This document shows positions 1,583 through 62,080 of a stretch of DNA of 64,000 nt, one piece after another. The notes under the pieces are model-generated. The model saw nothing but the letters and a program-made list of their open reading frames with translations. It searched no databases and was not told the origin of the DNA. The stretch is from a virus. The first letter of the stretch is position 1. Every line of letters begins with the position of its first letter. The position numbers and the translations under genes were made by a program. The DNA lies in IMG/VR virus record IMGVR_UViG_3300021387_001054. One strand, 5' to 3'.

Positions 1583-3154
1583 ATGGTAAAGATATTACCA
1601 TTACAAAATATAAGTCAACTTAACGACGGCTCTCTTCCGGCGAATCTGAATGCTCGTACCACTAAAGTTTCGATGATACTCTCCGTCGAGAGCATACTCT
1701 CTATGCCAGAGAACAGTTCTCTCTTTTTACTGGTAGGCACAGGAGGGGGAAAAAGTCACTTTGCATCTACTACACTATACGAGGTAGCTGAAAGGCTGCA
1801 AACGAGGGTGCTGATATTAGAGAACCGTATACGAACAAAGGAGCAGATGCAGTACGACATTACACAAGCTGACAGTTCGGATCGTATATCGGTTCTTAGC
1901 TATCAGGCTTACGAGTTTTTGAAATCACGAGGTGAGACATTAGATTTCTCTAAGTACGGTTTAATCGTATGTGATGAGTTTCAACACATTGTAATGGATG
2001 CACCATTACCAAAGGCTTACCGTACATACGATATCGTAGAGGATATAATGAAACTCTCTGTTCGTAGATTTTTTATGAGTGCAACGCCAGCGGGGTTAGT
2101 GCCACATTTACAGCAGTTGCACAATGAAGCCTCTATCCCCTACTACACTTTATCGTTAGATATGGATTATAGTAGAATATATTTACGTCCATTTTACAGG
2201 TTGAATGATATTCCACATATAATAAGTAAAGCTCTATCAGAAAAGAAAAAGATTATAATTTTTTCACGAGATTTACAACAAGCGAAAGAACTTTATAAAA
2301 TGTACAAAACAAATAAAAATTCAAATATTATGTTTATTTGTTCTAAAAGTGCAAAGTTTTGTTATACACGTTTAATGGATGACAAGCTAGTTAATATGTT
2401 GATCGAAACAAAACGTATTCCGGATGGAATAGATATTATTGTTACCAGTACAGTATTAGATGTAGGCATTAGCATTGTAGATCCCAAACTAACGTATGTA
2501 GTTACGATGCTCACAGACATTGAACAAAGTATTCAATGTTTAGGCCGTAAGAGGTTAGTTGGGGATGAAGAGGTTCAATTTTACGTTCAGAATGTAAGTG
2601 AAGGCAAGTTGAGGCAAGAATTAACCACTATACAAAAACGGTATGAGGCTTACCGTATTTATAGAGATCGAGGGATTGCGGCAATGCTTATACATATTGG
2701 TGGCGTATCGCTTGATTATTATAATATGATAGTCTATCCGGACAATGATACGATACGCTGTCAACCAATTATGGGTAGAGTATTATATGATGAGTACCGC
2801 ATGGCTGCCATTACAGAAATTTTAGAGAGTAAACGCAGGTTGGTAGATGTAATGGCTGCGAAGTATCACTTTAATCAAACAGACATGCAGCAGCCGGTCT
2901 TACCAACTCACATTACTCGTGAAGCTGTACTAGCTGACTATGTAGGGATTCCATTATTAAATATGACTGAACGGCAACCGTTCATCCGAGCATTGGGATT
3001 GAGAGGTATTGATCGTCATTTAATAAGTAGTCGCAAAAAGATTAACACTGTACTAAAGGATGAAGGTTTGCCGTATGAAATTCATGAGTACCGTAAAATG
3101 ATCGGGGGGGTTGATTATCAACGAGTATGGGAAGTAGTTAAAGCAAACGGGTAA
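1583..3154 (+). CDS. SF2 (DEAD/DExH-box-like) helicase, probable phage replication helicase
   Basis: Motif I LLVGTGGGKS, motif II VCDEFQH, motif III MSATP, motif VI QCLGRKRL. Good RBS. Confidence 0.6.
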   Translation: MVKILPLQNISQLNDGSLPANLNARTTKVSMILSVESILSMPENSSLFLLVGTGGGKSHFASTTLYEVAERLQTRVLILENRIRTKEQMQYDITQADSSDRISVLSYQAYEFLKSRGETLDFSKYGLIVCDEFQHIVMDAPLPKAYRTYDIVEDIMKLSVRRFFMSATPAGLVPHLQQLHNEASIPYYTLSLDMDYSRIYLRPFYRLNDIPHIISKALSEKKKIIIFSRDLQQAKELYKMYKTNKNSNIMFICSKSAKFCYTRLMDDKLVNMLIETKRIPDGIDIIVTSTVLDVGISIVDPKLTYVVTMLTDIEQSIQCLGRKRLVGDEEVQFYVQNVSEGKLRQELTTIQKRYEAYRIYRDRGIAAMLIHIGGVSLDYYNMIVYPDNDTIRCQPIMGRVLYDEYRMAAITEILESKRRLVDVMAAKYHFNQTDMQQPVLPTHITREAVLADYVGIPLLNMTERQPFIRALGLRGIDRHLISSRKKINTVLKDEGLPYEIHEYRKMIGGVDYQRVWEVVKANG

Positions 3155-3505
3155 AACCCCCCCATGTTGCGGGAATTTATAACGGAATGCTTATAGTATA
3201 AATAAAAAATAACTACCTTAATTTATACTAAACCATACCTGTTCATTATCCACCGCGACTTGGTTCGGGGATACCACCCCCATACTTATGTCTTACAACA
3301 AAGTAGATCAATTAAAAAACGAGAAAGCAAATCAACAATACATTATCGTAACAGCAATGGGGTGTTGTAGTTGTTTGTTTATGGTCTACCTCTACTCATA
3401 ACTAAAGCACCTAGGCTTTCCACTCATTTCTCTAAAAAAACTATTGTATACGATGATGTGATATAGTTAATTCAATTCTTAAAGGAAAAATGAGGTGATT
3501 ATATT

Positions 3506-3949
3506 ATGTATTCGGCATTTGAAGTAGCAAAGTACATCATATGGTACTGTACCAAAGAGAATCATATAGTAAGCAATCTTAAATTGCAAAAAATTTTATA
3601 CTTTGTACAAGCTGAATTTTTGGTTGCACGTAATACCCCATGCTTTAACGAAAAAATTGAGGCGTGGACTTTTGGGCCAGTTGTTCCTGATGTTTATTAT
3701 AAATATCGAGCATTTGGAAATGCACATATTCCTTGTGTAGATATGACGGATTCGTACAATATTACACATGAAGATAGATTACTCATCAACGGTATTATTG
3801 ATGCTTGTGCGCCTTACACAGCTCCGCAATTAACGGAAATTACACGAAATCAATCTCCATGGTTAAAAGCATATCACACAAACAAATCTTGTATAATTTC
3901 TGAAACATCTATCCATGAATTTTTCAAAAAAGAGGAAAGCGATCTATGA
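3506..3949 (+). CDS. Panacea (DUF4065/GepA/SocA-like) domain protein, antitoxin-like
   Basis: N-terminal MYSAFEVAKYIIWYC...NLKLQKILYFVQAEF...EAWTFGPVVPDVY matches the recalled KLQKLLYYAQ / AW.HGPV.P.VY pattern of the phage-associated GepA/Panacea family. RBS aggtga. Confidence 0.5.
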   Translation: MYSAFEVAKYIIWYCTKENHIVSNLKLQKILYFVQAEFLVARNTPCFNEKIEAWTFGPVVPDVYYKYRAFGNAHIPCVDMTDSYNITHEDRLLINGIIDACAPYTAPQLTEITRNQSPWLKAYHTNKSCIISETSIHEFFKKEESDL

Positions 3950-4134
3950 ACATACGCACTCAATCCGGTATAAAAATCTACTGTCTTCCTAGCAGCGCTC
4001 TATGCAAATGTACAAGGAAATCTCCAGAACATATGAATGAATGTCCGATTTGCAATTTTGACTACTTCGGCATGGAATGCGTCCCTGAATTATGTGATAA
4101 ATACGAGGAAAATGAAACATCTGTAGAAGAATAA
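3946..4134 (+). CDS. Small Cys-rich (7 Cys, zinc-ribbon-like) protein translationally coupled to the Panacea gene by a 4-bp ATGA overlap
   Basis: CLPSSALCKCTRKSPEHMNECPICNFDYFGMECVPELC. The start overlaps the upstream stop. Confidence 0.35.
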   Translation: MNIRTQSGIKIYCLPSSALCKCTRKSPEHMNECPICNFDYFGMECVPELCDKYEENETSVEE

Positions 4135-4323
4135 AAAAATCCCATATTATAAATAAGTACGAAATCCTTACGCGAACATAAGAAAAGGAATATTCATAAA
4201 TAAAACCCTTTCGTTTGTCGTAGGTGGAGTCGCAAGTCACGTACCTTTAGGTGCGTGGTAGTTGACTATGATGTAAAATCAAGAAATAGGTGTAATTCTA
4301 ACTCAAGTATTTAATTATTTTAA

Positions 4324-4352
4324 TTGACATTTCTTCCATCTTATGTTATAAT
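4324..4352 (+). promoter_or_regulatory. Consensus sigma-A promoter: TTGACA, 17-nt spacer, TGtTATAAT, driving the early small-gene cluster
   Basis: TTGACA at 4324-4329 and TATAAT at 4347-4352 with TG at 4344-4345. Shares ttatgttataat with the 1548 promoter. Confidence 0.65.
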
Positions 4353-4405
4353 ATAAACAGTATGGATATACAATCTTTTAATCGTTCTGAAAGGAGTGTT
4401 TAATC

Positions 4406-4792
4406 ATGTTACTTAATCCCAATGTAGATGTCGAGCCGACAAGTATGTGCAATCGTGATGTTGTCTGGGACTGTGTCGATATCTTGTCGTGTATTGGCCC
4501 GGTGGTTCAGGATTGTATGCAGTCTCCAGTAGTAAGCAATAGCACTGTGTATAATGCGTTAGAAGCTATGCGGATCACGGAACTGCTCTTTATTAAAGGT
4601 TATTTAGCGGGGAAAGAGGGCAGCGACGAATTTAGTGATATTTATAAAGTTCATAGTAAGATTGTCCAGATGGCGCATGAGTTAAGTCCGATTGCGGGAG
4701 CGCGGCTGAAGACAGCTTATAGTTATCTTGATGACGTAGTTCAGCGTGCTTCTGTCTCTGAGGAATTATCTTCCGATGATGATAAGGTGTGA
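4406..4792 (+). CDS. Hypothetical early protein (128 aa)
   Basis: ORF with RBS aaaggag. No recognisable domain. Confidence 0.45.
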   Translation: MLLNPNVDVEPTSMCNRDVVWDCVDILSCIGPVVQDCMQSPVVSNSTVYNALEAMRITELLFIKGYLAGKEGSDEFSDIYKVHSKIVQMAHELSPIAGARLKTAYSYLDDVVQRASVSEELSSDDDKV

Positions 4793-5103
4793 TTATGAGT
4801 GGTAGAGCAACAAGGTTTGAAGCCCAAATTATAGACCCAACCCTACCTCTTAATGGACGTAAGGTTGAAGTTCTTCAATGTGATTGGGATCCTGATTTTT
4901 TATTGCTGTGTGGTTGGAATCTTATAGATGATAGAGAGGCTATGCTGACTTCGTGGCAAGTCGAAAAGGAATCTGACGTGTGTCATTATAATACATTGGA
5001 AGAATTTATCAAAGCGTGGAATAATTGGGAATTACCGCCATTCGTTCTTCTCAGACCTGAACAAGTGGAAATTTGTCAGGAGTTAGGACATGTAGATATG
5101 TAG
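4789..5103 (+). CDS. Hypothetical early protein (104 aa), coupled to the upstream ORF by a 4-bp overlap
   Basis: ATGA overlap with the upstream ORF. Confidence 0.4.
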   Translation: MIMSGRATRFEAQIIDPTLPLNGRKVEVLQCDWDPDFLLLCGWNLIDDREAMLTSWQVEKESDVCHYNTLEEFIKAWNNWELPPFVLLRPEQVEICQELGHVDM

Positions 5104-5146
5104 ACGGCAATTCTTTTAGCGAAATTTTAACACTAAGGAGATAGAT

Positions 5147-5752
5147 ATGGGTAAACTAACAATTGATGACTTTGTAAAAGCAATTAAACTCTGCATGTCG
5201 ACTAAAGTAGAGGGTTGTAGTGGATGCCCCGCTGTGTATGTAGAGGATGATTGTCTGCAAATCAATGAGATTGTTGCACCGATCGTAACTGCAAGAGTAC
5301 GCGCGAAACGTCTTGAACGTGACCTTAAAGTGGCAAAAGCAGAAATTACTTTATTAAAAGGTGCAATGAAAACAATGACTGACCAGCCCGAAAAGGACAC
5401 CCGGAAAACAAGTTCTACTCCCCGCAACCAGAATGAAGAAGATTTAGAACGCTGGCACCTGATTGGTGCAAAAGCTCTTAACGATTTGTTATGTTTGCAC
5501 ATGATTGTCGAATATGGAGCACCATTAACCGGTTGTGTTATCAGCGAGTTAGAAAATAGCATGGATGTTTGTTTTGGCGTTTTAGCGAAAGTAGCTACTG
5601 CGTGTGAGTATCCTACTATTGGTGAATTTATGATTCGGGCTGCATTGATCTTAGATAAAAGATCGGCAGACCCCAGTAAACGAAAATATATTAACGAAAC
5701 TTTAGTTGTATTGTTGATGAGAGGAGATGGATCGCATGAGTCTATTTGGTAA
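5147..5752 (+). CDS. Hypothetical protein (201 aa)
   Basis: Strong RBS aaggagatagatATG. The antisense ORF 5116-5778 was judged spurious. Confidence 0.5.
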   Translation: MGKLTIDDFVKAIKLCMSTKVEGCSGCPAVYVEDDCLQINEIVAPIVTARVRAKRLERDLKVAKAEITLLKGAMKTMTDQPEKDTRKTSSTPRNQNEEDLERWHLIGAKALNDLLCLHMIVEYGAPLTGCVISELENSMDVCFGVLAKVATACEYPTIGEFMIRAALILDKRSADPSKRKYINETLVVLLMRGDGSHESIW

Positions 5753-6934: not shown

Positions 6935-7096
6935 ATGTGGTTTGTCTTTCTTGTATCTATGATTGCTATTAGTTTGGTAAGTTCACTTTTGGTTTTATTT
7001 ATCAACGCGGTAGCCAATAAGATTCACAAAGATAATATCCGAGCAGAAAAAGAACTAGAAGAATATCGTACAAAGGAGCACTACAAAGATGAGTAA
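6935..7096 (+). CDS. Unlisted 53-aa single-TM membrane peptide (MWFVFLVSMIAISLVSSLLVLFINAV...), overlapping the start of the SPFH gene
   Basis: ATG at 6935 preceded by agggag. Hydrophobic N-terminal helix then a charged tail. Stop TAA at 7094-7096 overlaps the ATG at 7089. Confidence 0.45.
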   Translation: MWFVFLVSMIAISLVSSLLVLFINAVANKIHKDNIRAEKELEEYRTKEHYKDE

Positions 7097-7961
7097 GAAA
7101 CTTATTGCTGTTATTATTGTTCTAATTGGAATTATTGGTGGTGTTTACACTGTCTTATCTTTAGAACACGTTGGTCAAGGTGAAGTTGGTGTTGTATATC
7201 GCATGAAGGACGGTGTACAAGATGAGACGCTTGCGCCAGGATTTCACTTCATCTCCCCCACTAGCAAAGTAAAGACGTACCCTATTGCTCAACAGCAACT
7301 TGTATTGAGTAATAATCCCTCTGATTACAATACTGATTCTCATGCGGATTGGCATGTCGATGCACCCGCTAATGGCGGTATGGTAAAACTCAATATGACG
7401 ATCAATTATAACTTCTTACCTGACCGTGTAGTAGAACTCTATGAAAAGTTCAACGGCATGGACGGCGATCAAATCATGGATAGTATGGTACAGAATAGTG
7501 CTATCGCTTACATCAAAGAAGTTACGCCGCAATTCACCGTAATGGATATTTATAGTGATAAACGGTCTGAGGTAAGCAAAGCAATTACTCAGTATCTTGA
7601 TTCTAAATTGACGGACGAGTACGGTATCAATATTTCTTCTGCTCTTATTATTGATGTACAACTTGATAAGACATTACAAGAAAAGGTACAGGCAAAAGAA
7701 CAGGCTAAACAGGATGCAGAAAAAGCTGAATTGGATAAACAGACAGCTATTGCACAGGGTGAAGCAAATAAAGCAAAGGCAGAAGCGGCTGCGGCGGTTA
7801 CTATTACAAATGCGCAAGCGGAAGCTAAAGCAAACCAGATTATTTCCGCTTCTATCACTGATAAGTTAATTGCAATGAAGGAAGCAGAAGCCCGGCAGAA
7901 GTTTGGTTGGATTACTGTACAAGGAGCCAATACAGTTGTTACTACAGATGAAGATCAGTAA
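7089..7961 (+). CDS. SPFH/band-7 (HflK/HflC/flotillin-like) domain membrane protein
   Basis: N-terminal TM segment (LIAVIIVLIGIIGGVY), then GEVGVVYRM...APGFHFISP, and a C-terminal A/E/K/Q-rich coiled coil (EKVQAKEQAKQDAEKAELDKQTAIAQGEANKAKAEAAAA). Confidence 0.6.
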   Translation: MSKKLIAVIIVLIGIIGGVYTVLSLEHVGQGEVGVVYRMKDGVQDETLAPGFHFISPTSKVKTYPIAQQQLVLSNNPSDYNTDSHADWHVDAPANGGMVKLNMTINYNFLPDRVVELYEKFNGMDGDQIMDSMVQNSAIAYIKEVTPQFTVMDIYSDKRSEVSKAITQYLDSKLTDEYGINISSALIIDVQLDKTLQEKVQAKEQAKQDAEKAELDKQTAIAQGEANKAKAEAAAAVTITNAQAEAKANQIISASITDKLIAMKEAEARQKFGWITVQGANTVVTTDEDQ

Positions 7962-8474: not shown

Positions 8475-10931
8475 ATGCTGTTTCGTCAAATTAGAATGAT
8501 TACCGGTGATTGCGGCAAACGCAACGATTATATTATCTTTGTTAATTGTAAAGGTGGCAAAGCTCACCGTGACGCATTATCTGATTTAGTACGAGAAGGA
8601 TTTTGGATTGGTGATACACATTACGTAACCAGCGAACGGTCAGCATCTATGGTACGCACCTCTATACTTTCTTTTGTAGATGAAAGTATTAGTGAAGAAT
8701 TACGCCGTCGTGTCACGATGGATATACATTTAGAAACAACGGTTCTTTCTAAGTGGTATGCGTATCGCGGATTGATGTTAAGCTCGTGTCATTGTTTAGA
8801 GGGTTGGACGCCGCGTATTATTATCGTACCAGACTTATATCGTGTTATTGCAAATCAGACGATTAAGTATGTTTATGATAAACACATGACCTATGAAAAG
8901 GACGGTAAAGTATTACCGTGGGTGCAAAAAGATATTGCGACCGGTGTACGAGACATCGAGATCAATGCTGCGGATGGGTGTGGAATACATCATCCTGATA
9001 TTACCGATCAAGTTCGTGGCATGTTGGACGCTAAGTCCGACCCTACTTCAATCTTGTGGCGTGCGCCTTTTATCAAAGGCGTAACCCACGAGATGGATTA
9101 CATTTCATTTTTTCAAGAACGCGGGGTAACTGAAATAGTAGATATTTGGGGAGTACGTCACGACGTCTCCCCTTCTTCCCTACCTGCTATTATTATGTGT
9201 GAATCAATGTATAAAGGTTTCAAATATTTCAAACGCAATGGAGATGTGTCAGATTGGGAACATTATTGGGAAGTGTTTCATAAATACAATCATTGCATCG
9301 GAGTTGCGAAATGGAATTTTTCTTTAGATGAAGAACCTTTGTATACTCGCGGCAACTATCAGATATTGCAAGACTTAGATTTACCTTATGAGGATTTTGC
9401 TACGCTGGCGCGATATTCGATAAGTTGGGTGTCACGCATTCTTACCGGCGATCCCGTTTATCTGTATAGTTTTCTCGGATTATTTGCCGACCAACATAAG
9501 AGCTTTGATTTGCGCATGGAAGCGTTAGTTAAGAATCGTATGATGATTCATGAAGCTGGTGTACGTCAGTACATTATATCATTGATTTCTAAAACGATTG
9601 ATGATATGAAGTGTGGTAAATTATATTTGAAAGCCTGTTTTAAATTTGAAGCTCCTGACCTTATTATGTTAATGGAACATATCGGCGGTTTGCCTTTGCA
9701 TGGTTGTTTAGAATCAGATGAGTTTTTCTCGTTTAACAAACAAGGTAAGTTCAACGGTTATTATTTGGTGGAACGCAACCCCCATATTTGTCGATCTGAG
9801 CATTGCAAATTAAAAGCGGTTAATAATGAATTAACTGACAAGTATTGTTCCCACCTGGTGAATGTAGCTATGTTAAATAGTAAATCAATTACTGCCCAGC
9901 GATTAAACGGTAGTGACTTTGACGGCGATTTAGTATTAGTAATTGATGAACCCATGATGATGGCAGGCGTAGACCCCGACGTTCCAATTACGATTGATGT
10001 TGAAGATAAAGTTACTGCTTTAGAAGAAGCTGACACGCCTGAGAATCAGGTGAAAGTTGCATTACGTGGCATGAATTCGTTAATCGGTGAGACAAGTAAT
10101 TGTGCTACGGCATACATCAATAAAACGCCGAAGACCATTGAAGCTAAATTGCGCTATGACTCTTATATAAACTTACTGAGTGTTATCAATGGTAAAGCAA
10201 TTGATTCGGCTAAGACCGGTGTAGTGTATAATATTCCTAGATATATTGCTAAGTATGGGCGACCTCTCCCCTACTTCATGAAATATGCTTCACCATATTA
10301 TGCCAGCATGAAAGACTTATCTAAGTCACTTAGTAACATGAATCGTCTTTGCATGGAAATTGAATCGTGGCAGCGGTCTATCCGGTGGAATAAACCGTTT
10401 TCTAAATTTTCTGCTACGGGAACAATGCAAAACTTTGAGTATCATATTGACACAGAGGATAATATGAATCAGCCCGCAGAGTCACAGCATTTTGATTATA
10501 AAATCATGATCGACGATACAATCCCCGTCGATAAAAATAAACTCGAACAGATTCGGGCTATCTTTCTACAGTACAATCAAGAAAGTAGTGCTTTAACAAA
10601 AGAGTTTCGCGCAGGGTTATTAAAGGCTACAAATAAAAAGAGCCGATCTGAAAGCTATGTAATAGATATTGATTGGCAGACATTTTATAATTCGTACCGA
10701 TTAAGATGTTTTGATATTTGTCCTAACATCTGTGAGCTTGCTAACTATGCTGTTATTATTTGTTATGAGTATTATCCAAAAAGGTCAAAAGGTTTTTTGT
10801 GGCATATAGCTGGCGAAGGCATTATTGCTAATCTTAAACAAGTAGAAGAATATTTACCTATCAGAGATGATGCCGGTGACTACGAATATTTAGGTCGGCG
10901 GTATCGAATGGAGAAGATCATGTTTGATTAA
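8475..10931 (+). CDS. Candidate YonO-like single-chain DPBB RNA polymerase (818 aa)
   Basis: Contains NGSDFDGDLVLVIDE. DFDGD is the Mg-binding signature of the RNAP beta-prime double-psi beta-barrel and of YonO- and crAss-type phage RNAPs. The size is close to the recalled 839 aa of YonO. It is followed by an HU-like gene and then terminase and portal, as in SPbeta (from memory). Confidence 0.45.
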   Translation: MLFRQIRMITGDCGKRNDYIIFVNCKGGKAHRDALSDLVREGFWIGDTHYVTSERSASMVRTSILSFVDESISEELRRRVTMDIHLETTVLSKWYAYRGLMLSSCHCLEGWTPRIIIVPDLYRVIANQTIKYVYDKHMTYEKDGKVLPWVQKDIATGVRDIEINAADGCGIHHPDITDQVRGMLDAKSDPTSILWRAPFIKGVTHEMDYISFFQERGVTEIVDIWGVRHDVSPSSLPAIIMCESMYKGFKYFKRNGDVSDWEHYWEVFHKYNHCIGVAKWNFSLDEEPLYTRGNYQILQDLDLPYEDFATLARYSISWVSRILTGDPVYLYSFLGLFADQHKSFDLRMEALVKNRMMIHEAGVRQYIISLISKTIDDMKCGKLYLKACFKFEAPDLIMLMEHIGGLPLHGCLESDEFFSFNKQGKFNGYYLVERNPHICRSEHCKLKAVNNELTDKYCSHLVNVAMLNSKSITAQRLNGSDFDGDLVLVIDEPMMMAGVDPDVPITIDVEDKVTALEEADTPENQVKVALRGMNSLIGETSNCATAYINKTPKTIEAKLRYDSYINLLSVINGKAIDSAKTGVVYNIPRYIAKYGRPLPYFMKYASPYYASMKDLSKSLSNMNRLCMEIESWQRSIRWNKPFSKFSATGTMQNFEYHIDTEDNMNQPAESQHFDYKIMIDDTIPVDKNKLEQIRAIFLQYNQESSALTKEFRAGLLKATNKKSRSESYVIDIDWQTFYNSYRLRCFDICPNICELANYAVIICYEYYPKRSKGFLWHIAGEGIIANLKQVEEYLPIRDDAGDYEYLGRRYRMEKIMFD

Positions 10932-12170: not shown

Positions 12171-12509
12171 GTGCTAGTGGTTAAAAAGGAATTAGTAGCA
12201 GAGATTGCTGACCGTATGAATATCGACAAAGAAACCGCAGGTTTATTCTTTCAAACATTTCAGGATGTAGTCTATGACACGCTTAATTCTGGCGAGGATA
12301 TTTTAATTGTTAATATGATGCGTATGGAGATTGTGCTACGCGATGGACGTAGCTATTATGATTTATCTGCAAAGGCAAACGCATGGGCACCGCCTAGATA
12401 TAATTTAGTAATTCGTCCTATTGGCAAATTAAAGGACTCTATTAAGAGCCAGAAGGTTTCTACTTATGAAGCAAAGAAATTGCGTAAGCACTCTCGGAGC
12501 GAAGACTAA
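12171..12509 (+). CDS. HU/IHF-like DNA-binding protein (GTG start)
   Basis: Length and pattern (KKELVAEIADRMNIDKETAGLFFQTFQDVVYDTL..GEDILIV...R.GR...........P...LVIRPIGKLKDSIK) parallel bacterial HU (MNKTELI..VA...L.K......V......I...L..GD.V.L.GFG.F.V..R..R.GRNP.TG....I.....P.FK.GK.LKD.V). Confidence 0.5.
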   Translation: MLVVKKELVAEIADRMNIDKETAGLFFQTFQDVVYDTLNSGEDILIVNMMRMEIVLRDGRSYYDLSAKANAWAPPRYNLVIRPIGKLKDSIKSQKVSTYEAKKLRKHSRSED

Positions 12510-13471
12510 TGGGTAGAGCAAAACAAAGTAAACACATTAAGTTGTTCGATAAAGAAAAAGTTGCGAAGATTAACCCTGAGAGTAAAAGGCTATTAAGAGA
12601 ATATAAAAAAGATATGGTGTTGCGTGAACTGTCTCCCGGAACAATCGAAGGTTATTTTGGTGACTTATATCAGTGGTTGATTTTTGTATTAGAGAATCAA
12701 GAGAATAAGTCTGTTTTAGAAATAGACGAAGATGATCTGACAGATTTTTTCTATTGGTGTAAAACCGAAGGAAACAATACACGCCGCATGAGACGTAGAT
12801 ATTCTAGCATTTCAGCGTTTTATAAATTTTTAAGGAAAAAGCGCAAGGTCACAGAGAACCCGATGGAGTTTGTAGACCGACCAATTAAAGATGTCGATGT
12901 AATCACTCAGACATATTTAACAGTAGAGCAAATTGAAGAAATGAAAGAGAAATTAGCAGCGACGGGAAATCTCACACTTGAAGTGTATGCTTTATTCTCT
13001 TTGAGTACAATGGCTCGTGTCAATGCTGTGTCCAACATCAAGTGGAAACAGATTGATTTTGCGCAACGCATTGTTACGGACGTTTTAGAAAAAGAAGGAA
13101 AAATAGTAACCTTATATTTTTCTGAGGAAGTCCGGTTAAAACTTATTCGACTTCAACAGTTCCGCGAACTAAACGAGATCGACGATGGTGGTTATGTCTT
13201 TTTCAGCAGAGATAAAGATGGTCATCCTAAACCTGTATCGACTGGTACATTACATAGTTGGGCAAGGAAGATTGGTCGCATGATTGGGGTGCCTACGCTG
13301 CATCCGCATGACTTTAGGCACTCTGGTAGCCAGCAACTTAAACTTGCTGGTATGCCCTTAGAGGAAATATCGGTTTTATTAAATCATGAATCGACTGAAA
13401 CTACCCGGAGACATTACCTACAAGCCGACACACAAAGTATACGAGCATCCAAAGATAAGTATGGCTTGTGA
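12509..13471 (+). CDS. Tyrosine site-specific recombinase (XerC/D or phage-integrase family)
   Basis: C-terminal catalytic block LHPHDFRHSGSQQLK ... TRRHYLQ (H-x-x-R ... Y) and an N-terminal SAM-like domain. Confidence 0.8.
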   Translation: MGRAKQSKHIKLFDKEKVAKINPESKRLLREYKKDMVLRELSPGTIEGYFGDLYQWLIFVLENQENKSVLEIDEDDLTDFFYWCKTEGNNTRRMRRRYSSISAFYKFLRKKRKVTENPMEFVDRPIKDVDVITQTYLTVEQIEEMKEKLAATGNLTLEVYALFSLSTMARVNAVSNIKWKQIDFAQRIVTDVLEKEGKIVTLYFSEEVRLKLIRLQQFRELNEIDDGGYVFFSRDKDGHPKPVSTGTLHSWARKIGRMIGVPTLHPHDFRHSGSQQLKLAGMPLEEISVLLNHESTETTRRHYLQADTQSIRASKDKYGL

Positions 13472-41433: not shown

Positions 41434-42588
41434 TCAGACGTGCTGAGATGATACTGTATCCGGTACTTGACTATCCTTTGCAAGATAGTTGATTCCCATG
41501 CGATACAGATTCATTGCTCCGATACGGTCATCATTGGACGTGTAACCGCAAGATTTACAGCAGAAGATATGCTTATTTTTATCACGGTTAGACTTTTCCG
41601 TGTGACCGCAAACAGGACAGGTCTGGCTCGTATAACGAGGGTCTACGTTAATTACTAGACTCTCGTTGAGCGCAGCCTTATACTTTAACTTCTTCTCCAG
41701 GTCGTAAAACGACCAAGATACGGTAACATAACGGTCTTTGCGACGCACCTTCTCTGTGGCAGAACGAACGCCGGACAGGTCCTCTAAGACAAAGAGCGTG
41801 TGCTTCGGGTTAGACTCAACGAGTGCCTTTGATACACAATGGTTTACATCCTGCATCCAACGGTTTTCTCGCTGACCGATAGCTTTTAGCCTTCGTCTTG
41901 CAGAAGGAGTCTGTCTTTGCTGAAGTTCCTTGCGGAGCTGTTTGTACTTAGCACGTTTTTGCTTAATATTCCTGCCGCTTACAAAGCCGGACTTATGTTT
42001 GCTGTCATAGGTTGCAACGACAAAGTTAATACCCCTGTCTACGCCGACAACATTACAAACGTCGCAATCCAAGGCTTCAAGGATATCTCTGGTAACTGGG
42101 ATATGCAGAAAATACTTGCCATGCTTTTTCACAAGTTTGGCAGTGCCAAAGGAGTAGATATCGTGGTCAAAGTATTTCTCCATGCCACCAGAATAGTATG
42201 GCAGCTTCACACGACCGCTAAGTGTATTTACAGAGAACAAGTTCTGCGTAAGAGAATAGTCTCTATTCCACACAAGGTCGTATTGAGGATTAGAAAAATC
42301 TGGCTTAATCCATTCATGTTGGTTTTCTAAGATGGTTTTGTATCTTGCAATAACCGTCTTAAAAACAGATTGTGCCATCTGGGATTTTAAGCCATAGCGC
42401 TTACGGAGATCATAATACAATGCCTTATTAAGCGAAAACTGCTTCAGGTCATGCGTCTGGAAGATGTAATTTGCCACAAAGTTACACGCACTGCGATAGG
42501 TGTCCATAGTAACATCCAACAGCTCACGCTGTTCGGGTGCAACTCGGACCTGAATCTTTGCAGTAGTAGTGATTTGCATCAGTAACAT
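41434..42588 (-). CDS. tnpB: TnpB (OrfB) RuvC-like RNA-guided endonuclease of IS200/IS605
   Basis: RuvC-I VVGVDRGINF, RuvC-II LFVLEDLSG, zinc finger CPVCG...CKSCG, RuvC-III NDDRIGAMN. Confidence 0.85.
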   Translation of the reverse strand: MLLMQITTTAKIQVRVAPEQRELLDVTMDTYRSACNFVANYIFQTHDLKQFSLNKALYYDLRKRYGLKSQMAQSVFKTVIARYKTILENQHEWIKPDFSNPQYDLVWNRDYSLTQNLFSVNTLSGRVKLPYYSGGMEKYFDHDIYSFGTAKLVKKHGKYFLHIPVTRDILEALDCDVCNVVGVDRGINFVVATYDSKHKSGFVSGRNIKQKRAKYKQLRKELQQRQTPSARRRLKAIGQRENRWMQDVNHCVSKALVESNPKHTLFVLEDLSGVRSATEKVRRKDRYVTVSWSFYDLEKKLKYKAALNESLVINVDPRYTSQTCPVCGHTEKSNRDKNKHIFCCKSCGYTSNDDRIGAMNLYRMGINYLAKDSQVPDTVSSQHV

Positions 42589-49664: not shown

Positions 49665-50192
49665 ATGATTGAAAGAAAATCAATAATTGCCTCTACCCTT
49701 GGCGTTCAAAATCATGGTGGCAGTGGTGGAGATGTAGATTTAAGTGAATACAGGAAATATGTAGATCAAGATGTGATTGATGCGGCACTGACTGCGAAGG
49801 TGACGGCATTAGAAGATAAAGCCGAACGCTTTGTTGTACATTGTACTGCCTCTTCTATCCCGCCTTTTGGAGGAGCATTTGATATTGCTACTGATAAATC
49901 GTTCAATGATATATTATCTGCATACAACAGTAATAGAGAGGTATGCGCTATTTTGACGTCATCCGCAATGCAAGGTGTTGCATTCCTTACAGGCATTGCT
50001 CCGGATGCTGCTATATTTTACACTCTCATTACTTTAGGTTCGCAAAGCAATCTTATGTACTTACTCGTTTGTATTAGTAACGATAAACCGTTTGGCGTAT
50101 TGATGTCTGCAACATATGATGATACTGATATTTCTAATCGCGTTTCCGCACTGGAAACCGCGCTGACAGGACTAGACGAGGTGATCGGATGA
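49665..50192 (+). CDS. Hypothetical protein (175 aa)
   Basis: ORF with RBS aaggac. Confidence 0.4.
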   Translation: MIERKSIIASTLGVQNHGGSGGDVDLSEYRKYVDQDVIDAALTAKVTALEDKAERFVVHCTASSIPPFGGAFDIATDKSFNDILSAYNSNREVCAILTSSAMQGVAFLTGIAPDAAIFYTLITLGSQSNLMYLLVCISNDKPFGVLMSATYDDTDISNRVSALETALTGLDEVIG

Positions 50193-51700
50193 GTACATAT
50201 GTTGAGCGTATTCAAGCGCAGATTGATAAAGCGAATACTGCAACGGGAAAAGATGATTCCACGCTGGTACAAGCCGTTCAATCGCTCGTCGACGGCTACG
50301 GTGCAGGCGGCGGCGATTCCGGGGCGGAAGATATGCTGAAAGGCTTGATCGAACGCTCTGCAACGGAAATCACGATCCCAAACGGTGTGACGAGCATCGG
50401 GGATTATGGGTTTGCATATTATTCCGGCCTGACCAGCATCACGATCCCGAACAGCGTGACAAGCATCGGGAGTAATGCGTTTTTTAACTGTGCAAAATTA
50501 GCTAGTATTACGATCCCGGGCAGTGTGAAAACCATCGGAACCTTCGCATTTCAAAGGTGTTCACAACTTGCCAGCGTCACAATCCTGAACGGCGTGACGA
50601 GCATCAAGGATTATGCGTTTTACAACTGTGCAGAATTAGCTAGCATCACAATTCCGAACAGCGTGACAAGCATCGGGAGTAATGCGTTCAAGGGTATCAA
50701 CGCGAACGCCGTAATCACTTGCAAATTCGCAGAAGGCGCGGTGTCAGGTGCGCCGTGGGGTGCGCCAGACACGGTTCAAATTATTTACGAACGACGTGTA
50801 TATACTGTATATTTTTATAACGGTTCTACGCTGTTACAGACGGTTGAAGGAGTACAAGCAGGAGGAACGGCGACTTATACCGGGGAGACCCCGACAAGGA
50901 CTGGCGTGGAGAACCCTGAGGACTATTCGTTCAGCGGATGGTCGCCGTCTAACACCAACATCCAGAGCAACACATCCTGCTATGCACAGTTCAATTATAC
51001 TGGCGTGCCGGAGACCATTACGGATAGTTGGGACGACATCATCGCGGCGGTCAACAACGGGACCTATGCCAGCAAGTACAGCGTCGGAGACACCAAGCAA
51101 ATCGACCTCGGCACGGAGGGTATCGTGGCTATGCAGATTGCGGCCATCGACACCGACGCGCTCGCCAGCGGCAGCGGAACGGCGGCCATCACATGGATTT
51201 CGCAGCAGCTTATCGCTACGAGCCATCGCATGAACCCGGCCAGAGCCGCAGACCCGGAGGATTCCTCCAAGTATCAGGAGGGTACGGGAACCATCGGCGG
51301 CTGGGAAAAGACGGAGATGCGGAGCTGGCTGAAAGAAACGGTCAAGCCGCTTATCCCGGCGAACGTATTGGCAGCCATCAAGCCCGTAACGAAGTACAGC
51401 AGGATTTACGACACTTCCGGCAGCGCGGTGAACAACGTCACCAGCACGGAGGATGTATGGATTCCGTCGGCCAGAGAGGTCGGCTTCACCGGGTACGAGA
51501 CAGAGGGACCGACCTACACCGGGCTGTTTACGGCCAATGCAGACCGTATCAAGAGCAAGACAGGCGCGTCCAGCGCCTTGTGGTGGCGGCTGCGGTCCGC
51601 TTCCGGAAGCGATACCTTCGGTAATGTGCATTCGGCCGGCTCCTATATCAGTTACAGCGCGTACTACTCTGGCGCGGTGGTTCTCGGCTTCTGCATATAA
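50189..51700 (+). CDS. BspA-type leucine-rich-repeat protein with a Listeria-Bacteroides (flg_new-like) repeat and an uncharacterised C-terminal domain; GC-rich cargo gene
   Basis: About 5 LRR_5 repeats (ITIPNSVTSIGSNAF..C..L.SITIP..V..IG..AF). YTVYFYNGS...GETPTRTG..F.GW motif. GC rises to about 55-60% by eye against about 38-40% around it. The overlapping ORFs 50748-51233, 50834-51631(-), 51028-51624 and 51453-51836 are GC-driven artefacts. Confidence 0.65.
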   Translation: MSTYVERIQAQIDKANTATGKDDSTLVQAVQSLVDGYGAGGGDSGAEDMLKGLIERSATEITIPNGVTSIGDYGFAYYSGLTSITIPNSVTSIGSNAFFNCAKLASITIPGSVKTIGTFAFQRCSQLASVTILNGVTSIKDYAFYNCAELASITIPNSVTSIGSNAFKGINANAVITCKFAEGAVSGAPWGAPDTVQIIYERRVYTVYFYNGSTLLQTVEGVQAGGTATYTGETPTRTGVENPEDYSFSGWSPSNTNIQSNTSCYAQFNYTGVPETITDSWDDIIAAVNNGTYASKYSVGDTKQIDLGTEGIVAMQIAAIDTDALASGSGTAAITWISQQLIATSHRMNPARAADPEDSSKYQEGTGTIGGWEKTEMRSWLKETVKPLIPANVLAAIKPVTKYSRIYDTSGSAVNNVTSTEDVWIPSAREVGFTGYETEGPTYTGLFTANADRIKSKTGASSALWWRLRSASGSDTFGNVHSAGSYISYSAYYSGAVVLGFCI

Positions 51701-57435: not shown

Positions 57436-59606
57436 ATAATAATTCATTGAATATTTTAGGACAATTGAGATTGGTGGAAACAAGAGGATACAGTGCGTAC
57501 GAAGTAGCAGTATTAAATGGTTATACAGGTACAGAAGAAGAATGGTTAGAGAGTTTAGTTGGACCACAAGGACCACAAGGACCTGAAGGAAAGAGTGCCT
57601 ATGAGGTGGCAGTTGAAAATGGATTTATTGGTACAGAACAAGATTGGATAGATTCATTTTTAACACCAGATGGTTATTATACTAAAGAAACAATAGATGA
57701 GAATTTTACTAAGATTTGTTCTAATATAGAAGAAATGGAAGATTTAGATTCAAAAGAAGGAATGACGATACATACTTTGGGTTATTATACTGCTAATGAT
57801 GGTGGAGAAAGCTTTTATAAAATAAGACTTAAAACAGAAGAAGATGTTGATGATGGTGGTTCTATCATTATAATTGGTGATTTAGTAGCCGAATTAATAG
57901 TTGAAAATAATACTGTAAATGTAAAACAATTTGGTGCTAAAGGTGATGGTATTAGTGATGATACATTACCAATTCAAAATGCATTAAATAGTCAAGCAGA
58001 TAAAATATATGTTTCAGAAGGAAATTATTTAATAACATCAACTTTAACAATGCCTTTTAATAAAACACTATATGGATGTAATGCTAATACTTGTATTTTT
58101 AAAGGCGATGATTTCGATGATTATTTAATAATATATGGAACTACTTATGATTATGGAAGCAAAAGGGGAAAGATTGAAGATATTAGATTGGAGACTTCGG
58201 ATGAACAGCTTGCTAATCAAACATATGGTTTATACTTAAATAGTGGATTAGAAATAAAAAATGTTTATTTTAATCATTTAAAACAAGCGATAAGTAAATC
58301 TAGTTCATATATAGATAATTTAATTTTATATCGTTGTCATATAATGTATTGTGGTGGAAAAGCTAATTCTTATGTTGTAGACTTGGCTGGAAAAGGTGAT
58401 GCTATTTTAATTTCACAATGTCATTTTGTTGCAGGATATACATTGGATAATTATAATGATTATCTTGGAATCAGAGTTCAGAGTAGTACAGGTACTTTAT
58501 TAGAAAACAATATAATTAATGCACCGATAACAATTAACAATTCCATAGCAACTTTATTAAATAATCATGTGGAAGGTCCAAGTGCACCTTTACATTTTAA
58601 TTTATCTAATATTATGATAAATAATTCTAATGTTTCAATAGATACATTATTTATACATAAATGTATAAATAAACCTGAAATTGCCATTCAATTAGAAACA
58701 TCTAATGAAGCACATAATAGTGAAGTTAATTTGAAAAATGTAAACATTTGTTTGACAAGTTTAATGTTTTCAAATTATCAAAATATGTCTGATATGTATA
58801 ATTTATATGTTGGAAATCAAGTTGTTGTATATATTGATAATGTTATTAATTATGTAGATTATTCGGCTACATGGAGTCAAGTTAAACCAGAGACAGGTAT
58901 TATCGTTAAAAATGCTGATGGATTACTTGAAGACTTTAATATAATTTCTTCTATTGCTAGTCTACATTCATTAATTTCAATGAATAAAGTTTATACTCAT
59001 GATTTACAACCTATTGATGTTAATAGTACAAATAATTCATTATCAAATTCTACTGGTAATAAATACACTCCGTGGTTTGAAAGCGGATTTAACAACGACA
59101 GTGTATTTTATAGAAGGGTTAGTTGTTATGATTTCGATAGAAAATTAGCAGCATCTATATCCAATGAAAAAGAAGTTACAGGCATAACATCATATACAAG
59201 TGATAGTGAAATTGGAAAAGGTGCAACTATTTCAAATTTATCAAGTTTTATGAATAAAACTGTTGGTTGTGGATTATTAGATATTATATATCGTGGTAGT
59301 AGTACTGGTACATATGATAAAATTACTAAATTACCTGTATGTTGTGGTAGAGCTATATATGACTTTGGTACACATATCTTAGGTTATCCAACAATAGCAA
59401 GAGAGGCTTCTGCTATAGATGATTACAATATAGTTACTAATTTCAAAAGAATTGGAAATAATGTTGAATTTACATCTAGTAGTACACCTACTTATGGAAC
59501 ATTCATAAAAGGGGATATATGCATTAATTCTAGCATTGGAACAGGAAATACTATTTCATGGATATACGATGGAGAGAATTGGGTTTCGCAAGGAACGTAT
59601 GCGTAA
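57432..59606 (+). CDS. Tail spike with two N-terminal anchor repeats, a collagen-like GPQGPQGPEG motif and a pectate-lyase-type right-handed beta-helix
   Basis: VNVKQFGAKGDGISDDTLPIQNALN is the hallmark N-cap of Pectate_lyase_3-type tailspikes. The repeat SAYEVAV.NGF.GTEE.W appears twice. Confidence 0.55.
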   Translation: MNNNSLNILGQLRLVETRGYSAYEVAVLNGYTGTEEEWLESLVGPQGPQGPEGKSAYEVAVENGFIGTEQDWIDSFLTPDGYYTKETIDENFTKICSNIEEMEDLDSKEGMTIHTLGYYTANDGGESFYKIRLKTEEDVDDGGSIIIIGDLVAELIVENNTVNVKQFGAKGDGISDDTLPIQNALNSQADKIYVSEGNYLITSTLTMPFNKTLYGCNANTCIFKGDDFDDYLIIYGTTYDYGSKRGKIEDIRLETSDEQLANQTYGLYLNSGLEIKNVYFNHLKQAISKSSSYIDNLILYRCHIMYCGGKANSYVVDLAGKGDAILISQCHFVAGYTLDNYNDYLGIRVQSSTGTLLENNIINAPITINNSIATLLNNHVEGPSAPLHFNLSNIMINNSNVSIDTLFIHKCINKPEIAIQLETSNEAHNSEVNLKNVNICLTSLMFSNYQNMSDMYNLYVGNQVVVYIDNVINYVDYSATWSQVKPETGIIVKNADGLLEDFNIISSIASLHSLISMNKVYTHDLQPIDVNSTNNSLSNSTGNKYTPWFESGFNNDSVFYRRVSCYDFDRKLAASISNEKEVTGITSYTSDSEIGKGATISNLSSFMNKTVGCGLLDIIYRGSSTGTYDKITKLPVCCGRAIYDFGTHILGYPTIAREASAIDDYNIVTNFKRIGNNVEFTSSSTPTYGTFIKGDICINSSIGTGNTISWIYDGENWVSQGTYA

Positions 59607-59700
59607 TTAAGAAACTATTTATAGTTTCTTTTTTATTTACTTTTAATTAATTCCATGTTATAATTTAGTTATGAAAAACTATTTGAAAGGAGATATTCAA

Positions 59701-61856: not shown

Positions 61857-61867
61857 GGAGGTATGAA

Positions 61868-62080
61868 ATGAATTTGAAAAAATTATGGAATAATAGAATA
61901 TTTAGAACTTTTATACAAACAATAATCGCTACTATCGCAACTTATTTTATGACAACTAATGTTTTTGATATTGACAACAAAGCTTTGATAGGATTGATGA
62001 TAAGTGCAATTTCAACAGCTGTAGCAAAAATAATGCCTTTGTTTGATGAGGAGGGAAATAATGGACGATACAACAGTTAA
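61868..62080 (+). CDS. Small two-TM membrane protein (holin-like candidate)
   Basis: FIQTIIATIATYFMTT and LIGLMISAISTAVAKIM hydrophobic segments. 70 aa. Confidence 0.3.
   Translation: MNLKKLWNNRIFRTFIQTIIATIATYFMTTNVFDIDNKALIGLMISAISTAVAKIMPLFDEEGNNGRYNS

What the first reader, a model, noticed from the sequence alone, without database searches (positions are those of the whole stretch)
3506..4134. Panacea-domain (DUF4065) antitoxin-like gene coupled to a 62-aa cysteine-rich ORF: candidate toxin-antitoxin or anti-defence pair
The 147-aa protein has the N-terminal pattern I associate with the phage-associated GepA/SocA Panacea family (NLKLQKILYFVQ...EAWTFGPVVPDVY). Panacea domains are known as promiscuous antitoxin modules paired with unrelated toxins. 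Here the only tightly coupled partner (ATGA overlap) is a tiny 7-Cys protein that does not resemble any toxin class I can name. It could be a new small toxin partner or a regulator.
Basis: partly seen in the sequence, partly recalled or inferred. Interest (0 to 1): 0.6.

Follow-up and report, generated by a model that had tools for sequence, protein, structure and literature searches.

The report
Orphan phage antitoxin beside unrelated mini-protein
A large gut phage carries a Panacea-type antitoxin gene without the membrane-protein partner its relatives normally have, probably to disarm a host toxin, and the tiny cysteine-rich gene overlapping it is an unrelated, undescribed phage mini-protein rather than its toxin.

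Summary
ORF 3506-3949 (147 aa) is a stand-alone Panacea/DUF4065 protein (PF13274, E=6.9e-16, 59.6 bits against a cut-off of 25.7). It overlaps by ATGA a real 62-aa, 7-Cys ORF (3946-4134).

The reading as a pair does not hold.
- Of 160 loci with Panacea homologues, 129 have a homologous partner directly downstream. It is about 265-350 aa, with a soluble N-terminal half and 3-5 C-terminal hydrophobic segments.
- The closest relative outside this phage (66% identity) has that partner. The 64-kb window has none (HMM, E<=10).
- The Cys-rich ORF belongs to a separate family of acidic Cys4 mini-proteins (139 representative clusters). It has no Pfam match, one marginal PHROG match, and no fold match in PDB or BFVD.
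- That family sits in other phages' early-gene arrays next to unrelated genes: 0 Panacea hits in 22 such loci. It appears in none of 168 other Panacea loci except a copy of this same phage.

Unpartnered ("orphan") Panacea genes recur in large viral contigs (median 101 kb against 25 kb for partnered ones) and are under purifying selection there.

Best reading: an orphan PanA antitoxin used by the phage against host or prophage PanT membrane toxins (inferred, not shown), placed next to an independent mini-protein of unknown function. Interest is moderate.

The parts
3459..3467 (+). Candidate extended -10 promoter element (TGaTATAGT) about 40 nt upstream of the Panacea start. Low confidence: there is no good -35.
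   Evidence: Read directly from the sequence. The consensus promoter scan found no + strand sigma-70 site between 3155 and 3505, so the transcription start of this unit is unresolved.
3492..3497 (+). Shine-Dalgarno sequence (GAGGTG) of the Panacea gene, 8 nt before the ATG at 3506.
   Evidence: Sequence read.
3506..3949 (+). Stand-alone Panacea-domain protein (147 aa). It is an orphan PanA-type antitoxin homologue that lacks the membrane partner found next to most relatives.
   Evidence: PF13274 at E=6.9e-16, 59.6 bits, cut-off 25.7. 804 homologous clusters. It keeps all 33 invariant columns of a 30-sequence alignment. Nearest relatives are P0007 at 66% and P0008 at 65% identity, both with the membrane partner. 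No partner homologue in the window. Its C-terminal 5-7 residues (KKEESDL) extend past where relatives end and are encoded by the small ORF's ribosome-binding region.
3932..3936 (+). Shine-Dalgarno sequence (GAGGA) of the small ORF, inside the 3' end of the Panacea gene and 9 nt before the ATG at 3946.
   Evidence: Sequence read.
3946..4134 (+). 62-aa acidic Cys4 mini-protein. It belongs to an undescribed phage family with the signature LP(D/E)xAxC...P..M..CP...FD..G..C.PE.C..Y.E. It is probably metal-binding and its function is unknown.
4237..4258 (+). 9-bp hairpin (UCACGUACC-UUUA-GGUGCGUGG) in the 190-nt spacer after the small ORF. It has no U tract. It may be a weak terminator or processing site.
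   Evidence: RNA fold of 4125-4330: MFE -39.9 kcal/mol, z=-2.16. No terminator-like site found by the scan.
4324..4352 (+). Perfect sigma-70-type promoter (TTGACA, 17 nt, TATAAT, with TG) for the next gene at 4406. It marks the downstream boundary of the two-gene unit.
   Evidence: 12 of 12 consensus matches.

Best explanation
The two genes are not a co-evolved module.

**Gene 1 (3506-3949).** This is a stand-alone Panacea (PanA-type) antitoxin homologue. Its relatives are almost always followed by a homologous ~265-350 aa protein with a soluble N-terminal half and 3-5 C-terminal hydrophobic segments. That architecture matches experimentally validated membrane-depolarising PanT toxins. This phage, whose genome is at least 108 kb, carries the antitoxin without that partner. 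The most likely role is that the orphan PanA is made during infection and binds PanT-type membrane toxins of PanAT modules resident in the host or its prophages. That would block abortive infection. The closest precedents are T4 Dmd against RnlA/LsoA and the phage NADAR orphan antitoxins against DarTG1.

**Gene 2 (3946-4134).** This is an independent member of an undescribed family of acidic Cys4 mini-proteins, probably metal-binding. The family moves between the early-gene arrays of different phages. It was joined here to the 3' end of the Panacea gene, at the position the membrane partner normally occupies.

**Shown:** domain identity, absence of the partner, independence of the two families, recurrence of orphans in large viral contigs, and purifying selection on those orphans.

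**Inferred:** that the membrane partner is a toxin, that the phage PanA neutralises it in trans, and any function for the mini-protein.
For: 1. **Panacea domain.** It is significant and stand-alone.
2. **Partner census.** The gene directly downstream of the Panacea homologue (gap mostly -20 to +10 nt) belongs to one BLAST-linked cluster in 124 of the 151 loci where a downstream ORF was found. After tblastn rescue of missed cases, the partner is present in 129 of 160 loci: 56 of 80 viral and 73 of 80 genomic.
3. **Partner architecture.** 121 partners have 3-5 hydrophobic segments starting at about 55% of their length.
4. **Absence here.** The window has no partner homologue by tblastn at E<=1e-3 or by HMM at E<=10.
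5. **Closest relatives are partnered.** P0007 (66% identity) and P0008 (65%) both have the partner. P0007's partner matches the cluster at E=2e-97, and P0008's pair sits beside a prophage lysis module. The orphan state is therefore probably derived; in the neighbour-joining tree the window sits within a family that is mostly partnered.
6. **Orphans recur in large viral contigs.** 20 of 76 viral loci are orphans against 6 of 79 genome loci (Fisher p=0.002). Median contig length is 101 kb for orphans and 25 kb for partnered genes (Mann-Whitney p=5e-5). A 118-kb contig carries two tandem orphan Panacea genes.
7. **Orphans are maintained.** A clade of large-phage orphans has dN/dS of 0.06-0.19 at dS of 0.6-1.4.
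8. **Literature.** Stand-alone Panacea domains directly neutralise membrane-spanning toxins, and PanA specificity can be shifted by two substitutions (PMC8832971; PMC10440598). Phage orphan antitoxins act as counter-defence (PMC11825919).
9. **The small ORF is independent.** Reciprocal HMM tests found no co-occurrence. Its neighbours differ between loci and carry no antitoxin domains.
Against: - No experiment or complex prediction links this PanA to any toxin.
- The host is unknown, so it is not shown that the host carries the PanA-membrane-protein module.
- The membrane partner has no Pfam, PADLOC or NCBIfam match. Its toxicity is assumed from architecture alone.
- About half of all Panacea proteins are not in TA-like loci (PMC8832971), so stand-alone Panacea proteins may have other roles.
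- The phage encodes a tyrosine recombinase and may be temperate.
- Viral and genome loci are not phylogenetically independent samples, and IMG/VR contigs include prophages. The enrichment statistics are therefore indicative only.
- The tree is neighbour-joining without support values.
Confidence: 0.5

Rival explanations
1. First reader's hypothesis. The two genes form a genuine new PanAT module in which the 62-aa Cys-rich protein has replaced the membrane toxin as a new small soluble toxin neutralised by the Panacea antitoxin. This would be a partner swap caught in a phage.
For: The order is antitoxin first, with a 4-nt overlap and a separate promoter after the pair. Partner swapping inside Panacea clades is frequent (PMC8832971). 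The small ORF sits exactly where the usual partner sits. The pair is retained in at least 22 contigs of this phage lineage.
Against: - The architecture is not conserved outside one phage lineage, so it fails the published requirement of conservation in two or more species.
- The small-ORF family (139 clusters) occurs in at least 20 other loci with no Panacea gene and no recognisable antitoxin next to it. No neighbour is shared across the family.
- It has no membrane segment and no enzymatic or toxin domain, and it is acidic.
- Some members are fused to other Cys-rich segments, which is unusual for a toxin that needs a separate antidote.
- The same tight overlaps with unrelated upstream genes occur in other phages.
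Confidence: 0.07
2. The orphan Panacea protein has a role other than neutralising a host toxin. Examples are a sensor or regulator, a proteolytic adaptor like SocA, or a controller of one of the phage's own membrane proteins such as the Band_7 protein or a holin. The small ORF is an unrelated neighbour.
For: About half of Panacea proteins are not in TA-like loci. Ernits et al. propose that Panacea is primarily a sensor domain. Orphans are maintained by selection in large phages, which shows that they function but not what the function is. Band_7 homologues lie within about 3.5 kb of orphan Panacea genes in the window and in L045, L062 and L063.
Against: The window protein is 65-66% identical to partnered PanAs and keeps every invariant column of the family, so a changed activity is not the simplest reading. 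The match to the SocA equivalog model is far below its cut-off (66.9 against 190 bits). The Band_7 proximity may simply reflect shared ancestry of these large phages.
Confidence: 0.28
3. The locus is the remnant of a degraded PanAT module. The toxin gene was deleted or replaced, and the antitoxin persists without a current function or only as an anti-addiction relic.
For: The closest relatives are partnered. The small ORF occupies the former partner position. The Panacea C-terminus is altered at the junction.
Against: The ORF is intact with a good Shine-Dalgarno sequence and is identical across at least 22 contigs from different samples. Comparable orphans in other large phages are under clear purifying selection and are even duplicated. 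No trace of the partner remains in the window.
Confidence: 0.08
4. Both genes are separate components of a small anti-defence island. The orphan PanA acts against TA-type abortive infection. The Cys4 mini-protein acts against another host system such as restriction. They do not interact physically.
For: A Lar-like zinc-ribbon gene (PF14354, restriction-alleviation family) lies directly downstream of the small-ORF homologue in L017, L026, L201, L204 and L206, and within 1.5 kb in L028 and L205. The mini-protein is small, acidic and encoded in early-gene arrays. Anti-defence genes tend to cluster (PMC11541004).
Against: The Lar association covers only two or three independent phage groups, and Lar-like genes are very common in phage early regions. 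Most Lar-family members are untested. The mini-protein shows no similarity to any known anti-defence protein.
Confidence: 0.07

Closest known systems
PanAT type II toxin-antitoxin systems with stand-alone Panacea antitoxins and membrane toxins (Kurata et al. 2022, PMC8832971; Ernits et al. 2023, PMC10440598). Examples: Bartonella PanT(D11):PanA and Gelidibacter toxFtsL(D9, 281 aa):PanA.
   Same: The antitoxin domain (PF13274) is the same, and so is the single-domain architecture. The relatives of the window protein have the same antitoxin-first, tightly spaced two-gene layout. Their partner has a soluble N-terminal region and C-terminal membrane segments.
   Different: The window gene has no such partner. 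The membrane partner of this Firmicutes subfamily has no detectable family assignment and has not been tested for toxicity.
Phage orphan antitoxins used as counter-defence: T4 Dmd against RnlA/LsoA, and the T4-like NADAR protein AdfN against DarTG1 (PMC11825919).
   Same: A phage carries a homologue of a bacterial antitoxin without the cognate toxin. Relatives in bacteria and prophages are encoded with the toxin.
   Different: Those cases are experimentally shown, and AdfN is enzymatic. Here the mechanism would be direct binding by a Panacea domain, and it is only inferred. My literature searches found no report of a Panacea-based orphan counter-defence.
SocA of Caulobacter (SocAB; NCBIfam NF047745).
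   Same: It shares the Panacea domain over about 70 N-terminal residues.
   Different: The score is 66.9 bits against an equivalog cut-off of 190. There is no SocB-like partner. SocA works as a ClpXP adaptor (my own knowledge), and nothing here supports that role.
Small cysteine-rich phage early proteins such as Lar-type zinc ribbons (PF14354).
   Same: The mini-protein is similar in size, has four conserved Cys, sits in phage early-gene arrays, and is often adjacent to Lar-like genes.
   Different: It has no sequence or fold similarity to them. The Cys spacing is C-x12-C-x11-C-x4-C, not paired CxxC knuckles. A confident model finds no structural neighbour.

Membership tests
Panacea / DUF4065 domain family (Pfam PF13274) | A significant match to the family HMM above the gathering threshold, covering most of the profile. 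| tested here: met
   E=6.9e-16, 59.6 bits against 25.7, profile positions 1-112 of 113.
Panacea / DUF4065 domain family (Pfam PF13274) | Stand-alone architecture: no PAD1, HTH, ZBD or Phd-C accessory domain. | tested here: met
   147 aa with a single Pfam domain at residues 27-119. The only other hit is below threshold. It has the same length class as 804 homologous clusters.
PanAT two-gene TA module (criteria of Kurata et al. 2022) | Two co-directional genes no more than 100 nt apart. | tested here: met
   4-nt ATGA overlap.
PanAT two-gene TA module (criteria of Kurata et al. 2022) | [quoted passage not shown] | tested here: not met
   The small-ORF HMM hits only the window and the same phage among 168 Panacea loci plus the window. 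The Panacea HMM has 0 hits in 22 small-ORF loci.
PanAT two-gene TA module (criteria of Kurata et al. 2022) | The partner is toxic when expressed alone and is neutralised by, and binds, the PanA. | not testable with these tools
   This needs expression and pull-down assays. No multimer prediction was available.
PanA + C-terminal-membrane partner subfamily (defined here) | The Panacea protein clusters with the subfamily. | tested here: met
   50-66% identity to partnered members, and placement inside the family in the tree.
PanA + C-terminal-membrane partner subfamily (defined here) | A homologous ~265-350 aa partner with 3-5 C-terminal hydrophobic segments directly downstream. | tested here: not met
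   No partner homologue anywhere in the 64-kb window (tblastn at E<=1e-3; HMM at E<=10).
SocA antitoxin (NCBIfam NF047745, equivalog) | A score above the equivalog cut-off. | tested here: not met
   66.9 bits against a cut-off of 190. Only residues 6-76 align.
Phage orphan-antitoxin counter-defence (Dmd / AdfN kind) | A phage-encoded antitoxin homologue without a cognate toxin, while relatives are encoded with the toxin. | tested here: met
   The window is a phage, with terminase, portal and tape-measure genes. The partner is absent. 129 of 160 relatives are partnered.
Phage orphan-antitoxin counter-defence (Dmd / AdfN kind) | It neutralises a host toxin and rescues phage growth on hosts that carry the TA system. 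| not testable with these tools
   The host is unknown and no assay is possible.
Small membrane-active or enzymatic TA toxin (for the 62-aa ORF) | A hydrophobic membrane segment or a recognisable toxin domain. | tested here: not met
   The maximum Kyte-Doolittle 19-residue mean is 0.40, and net charge is -5.5. No Pfam, PADLOC, PHROG or NCBIfam hit.
Small membrane-active or enzymatic TA toxin (for the 62-aa ORF) | Conserved adjacency to an antitoxin gene across the family. | tested here: not met
   Neighbours differ between loci, none is shared family-wide, and no antitoxin domains were found.
Zinc-ribbon / treble-clef type metal-binding mini-domain (for the 62-aa ORF) | Four conserved metal ligands. 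| tested here: met
   C20, C33, C45 and C50 are conserved at 99-100% in 71 sequences.
Zinc-ribbon / treble-clef type metal-binding mini-domain (for the 62-aa ORF) | Paired CxxC/CPxC knuckles and a fold match to known zinc ribbons. | tested here: not met

The most novel reading that the evidence does not exclude
The Cys4 mini-protein may really have replaced the membrane toxin as a new partner of the Panacea antitoxin in this phage. That would make it a soluble, metal-binding toxin or effector with a fold not seen in PDB or BFVD, and a live example of Panacea partner swapping. A weaker version is that the mini-protein and the orphan PanA act together as a two-part anti-defence cassette.
Probability: 0.07. 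Interest if true: 0.65.

Novelty: new member of a known kind. Interest (0 to 1): 0.42.

Why it matters
If the orphan PanA does disarm host or prophage PanT membrane toxins, it would be the first Panacea-based phage counter-defence that my literature searches could find. It would also imply that the very common PanA-membrane-protein modules of gut Firmicutes work as anti-phage systems.

The survey gives a directly testable pattern. Partnered modules sit in prophage-sized contigs and bacterial genomes. Selected orphans sit in phages of about 100 kb.

The Cys4 mini-protein family is a separate lead. It has 139 clusters, a confident model and no known fold relative, and it belongs to an uncharacterised class of phage early proteins.

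Tried and rejected
- **DNA similarity to INPHARED phages for 3000-5200:** no match.
- **Rfam and tRNA scans of the window:** nothing found.
- **PADLOC for both proteins and eight membrane partners:** nothing.
- **Pfam and NCBIfam for the membrane partners:** only sub-threshold noise.
- **PDB sequence search with both family profiles:** nothing.
- **First AlphaFold2 run of the mini-protein with 5 sequences:** uninformative (pLDDT 51). Repeating with 71 sequences gave pLDDT 91.
- **Wider context search for the mini-protein:** The search for related loci with the broader alignments failed because no stretch was conserved enough. The narrow alignment against metagenomes gave 13 more loci.
- **Search for homologous phages through the helicase:** a single protein and a 5-sequence alignment returned only the same phage from IMG/VR. 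I therefore could not see what lies between the helicase and the downstream genes in related phages.
- **Fused members of the mini-protein family:** they gave no informative Pfam domains.
- **Rejected, "ATGA overlap means functional coupling":** the same tight junctions occur with unrelated genes in other phages.
- **Rejected, "membership of SocA":** the score is far below the cut-off.
- **Not possible here:** multimer structure prediction, reading model coordinates to check Cys geometry, and host assignment.

Full report
**1. What is in the sequence**

The + strand carries ORF 3506-3949 (147 aa) and ORF 3946-4134 (62 aa). They overlap by ATGA. Each has its own Shine-Dalgarno sequence: GAGGTG at 3492-3497 and GAGGA at 3932-3936.

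Upstream lies a helicase-like gene at 1583-3154 (PHROG 16), followed by a 350-nt spacer. Downstream there is a 190-nt spacer and then a perfect sigma-70-type promoter at 4324-4352 for the next gene. The two ORFs therefore form a short unit bounded downstream by that promoter.

The window is a phage genome. It encodes terminase, portal and tape-measure proteins and a tyrosine recombinase. The identical gene pair occurs on at least 22 metagenomic contigs. The longest contig recorded for the small protein is 108.8 kb.

**2. The Panacea gene**

Pfam PF13274 matches at E=6.9e-16 with 59.6 bits, against a cut-off of 25.7, covering nearly the whole profile. The protein is a single-domain Panacea protein. 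It belongs to a large family of 140-147 aa proteins from gut Clostridia and their phages, with 804 clusters at E<=1e-3. It is not a SocA equivalog: 66.9 bits against a cut-off of 190.

**3. The normal partner of this Panacea subfamily**

I fetched 160 loci encoding homologues at 36-58% identity, 80 from IMG/VR and 80 from genomes.
- A downstream co-directional ORF was found in 151 loci. In 124 of these it belongs to one BLAST-linked cluster of ~265-350 aa proteins, usually with a gap of -20 to +10 nt.
- tblastn rescued five more cases, giving 129 of 160 partnered loci.
- The partners have a soluble N-terminal half and 3-5 hydrophobic segments in the C-terminal half.
- They have no Pfam, PADLOC or NCBIfam assignment.

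This layout matches published PanAT systems, in which a stand-alone Panacea domain directly neutralises a toxin with C-terminal membrane helices (PMC8832971; PMC10440598). I could not test homology to those validated toxins.

**4. The window gene is an orphan**

No homologue of the membrane partner exists anywhere in the 64 kb, either by tblastn or by a family HMM at E<=10.

The nearest relatives outside this phage are partnered. P0007 (66% identity) is followed after 16 nt by a partner matching the cluster at E=2e-97. P0008 (65%) is followed by a 352-aa partner and sits next to a prophage holin/endolysin module.

Other close relatives are orphans. P0010 (61%) lies on 118-kb phage-like contigs that carry two tandem orphan Panacea genes. 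P0013 (60%) lies next to an SSB gene.

In a neighbour-joining tree the window sits in a mixed small clade inside a family that is overwhelmingly partnered. Partner loss, or capture of the antitoxin alone, is the likely history.

The window protein runs 5-7 residues beyond where relatives end (KKEESDL). That extension is encoded by the ribosome-binding region of the small ORF, which looks like a recombination joint.

**5. Orphans are a recurring, selected feature of large phages**

After excluding truncated loci and the window's own phage, 20 of 76 viral loci are orphans against 6 of 79 genome loci (Fisher p=0.002).

Orphans sit on much longer viral contigs: median 101 kb against 25 kb (Mann-Whitney p=5e-5). 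13 of 20 orphans are on contigs of at least 70 kb, against 6 of 56 partnered genes.

A clade of orphans from 70-145 kb contigs shows dN/dS of 0.06-0.19 at dS of 0.6-1.4. They are functional without a neighbouring partner.

These samples are not phylogenetically independent, and IMG/VR includes prophages. I treat the statistics as indicative only.

**6. The 62-aa ORF**

It is acidic (pI 4.7, net charge -5.5) and has no hydrophobic segment.
- A word-indexed search found only four other clusters.
- An exhaustive profile search found 139 representative clusters, 55 of them at E<=1e-10.
- In a 71-sequence alignment C20, C33, P34 and C50 are invariant. P15, C45, P47, Y53 and E55 are conserved at 90% or more. 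The other three Cys of the window protein are variable.
- The ligand spacing is C-x12-C-x11-C-x4-C, which is not a classical zinc ribbon.
- AlphaFold2 with this alignment gave pLDDT 91 and pTM 0.71.
- No member matches a Pfam family. One member marginally matches a PHROG.

This is an undescribed family. It is probably metal-binding, and its function is unknown.

**7. The two genes are not co-conserved**

Homologues of the small ORF lie in other phage early-gene arrays next to unrelated genes:
- between a DUF3799 PD-(D/E)XK nuclease and a Lar-like zinc ribbon in L017;
- among small Cys-rich proteins of unknown function in L018-L020;
- after a GIY-YIG protein and two unknown proteins in L021 and L022.

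The reciprocal HMM tests are clear. The Panacea HMM gives 0 hits in 22 small-ORF loci (99.7 kb). The small-ORF HMM hits only the window and a copy of the same phage among 168 Panacea loci plus the window (1.24 Mb).

No neighbour is shared across the small-ORF family. The only recurring neighbour is a Lar-like gene. It is directly downstream in five loci and within 1.5 kb in two more, but these represent only two or three independent phage groups.

Zero-gap junctions and ATGA overlaps with unrelated upstream genes are the norm for this family. The overlap in the window is therefore not evidence of functional coupling.

**8. Interpretation**

The best-supported reading has two parts. First, an orphan PanA antitoxin carried by a large phage, most likely acting in trans against PanT-type membrane toxins of PanAT modules in the host or its prophages. 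Second, an independent Cys4 mini-protein placed beside it.

The genomic facts are shown: domain identity, partner absence, independence of the two families, and recurrence and selection of orphans. The mechanism is inferred from the validated behaviour of stand-alone Panacea antitoxins and from phage orphan-antitoxin precedents (T4 Dmd; NADAR/AdfN, PMC11825919).

The rivals are:
- a non-antitoxin role for orphan Panacea proteins (about 0.28);
- a decayed TA remnant (about 0.08);
- a two-gene anti-defence island without physical interaction (about 0.07).

**9. Novelty and score**

The Panacea domain and the idea of phage orphan antitoxins are both known. A Panacea-based orphan and the split between large phages and prophage-sized elements did not turn up in my literature searches. 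I class the finding as a new member of a known kind.

The mini-protein family is new to the libraries searched, but it has no function attached. Interest is 0.42: a clear and testable hypothesis, not a surprise on its own.

Noticed in passing
window 8475-10931 (+): An 818-aa protein matches Pfam PF05183 (RdRP, the eukaryotic-type RNA-dependent RNA polymerase family) at E=2.7e-17 over residues 32-613. It also matches PHROG 8308, of unknown function. From my own knowledge this resembles the YonO-like single-subunit two-barrel RNA polymerases of some phages. It may explain why few sigma-70-type promoters are seen.
   Followed up: partly
L031-L189 (example L193 5444-6502; L031 4441-5430): A large, unannotated family of ~265-350 aa proteins with a soluble N-terminal half and 3-5 C-terminal hydrophobic segments lies directly downstream of Panacea genes in 129 of 160 loci from gut Firmicutes and their prophages. 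It has no Pfam, PADLOC or NCBIfam match. It is a candidate membrane PanT toxin or abortive-infection effector.
   Followed up: partly
L190 4294-5426; also L192, L212: Phage-like contigs of about 118 kb carry two tandem orphan Panacea genes (147 and 141 aa) separated by a 71-aa ORF. There is no membrane partner.
   Followed up: partly
L045-L054, L062, L063 (Panacea gene at 4001-4426 in most; 2529-2954 in L046): A clade of orphan Panacea genes on 70-145 kb IMG/VR contigs starts with TTG and is under purifying selection, with dN/dS of 0.06-0.19. Three of these loci also encode a Band_7 homologue about 3.5 kb away, as the window does at 7089-7961.
   Followed up: partly
L017 8174-8380; L026 1423-1629; L201, L204, L206; L028 and L205: Lar-like zinc-ribbon genes (PF14354 in L017) lie directly downstream of, or close to, homologues of the Cys4 mini-protein. 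Several loci hold multiple Lar-like paralogues.
   Followed up: partly
window 12509-13471 (+): A tyrosine recombinase (Phage_integrase plus SAM-like N-terminal domain) sits just upstream of the terminase and portal block. The phage may therefore be temperate or use it for dimer resolution.
   Followed up: no
window 41434-42588 (-) and 50189-51700 (+): A transposase (PHROG 506) on the opposite strand interrupts the otherwise + strand structural region. A local GC peak of 0.51 at 50-52 kb coincides with a BspA-type leucine-rich-repeat plus DUF6273 protein.
   Followed up: no
window 58000-64000: GC content falls to about 0.28 from 58 kb onward, against 0.38 for the window as a whole. This suggests a compositionally distinct module.
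   Followed up: no
L018 259-1306: Three consecutive paralogous small Cys-rich proteins (MGVYIK.MEVPK.C...CPLIPVP.HG) lie directly upstream of a mini-protein homologue. This is another unannotated family in phage early-gene arrays.
   Followed up: no
genome contig CAVAGP010000002.1 (Faecalibacillus sp., 116,270 bp; L159): L159, from this contig, carries a partnered Panacea gene. A helicase relative of window 1583-3154 (P0269, 37% identity) is recorded on an NCBI contig of exactly the same length, 116,270 bp. It may be the same contig and a distantly related phage or prophage of similar size.
   Followed up: no
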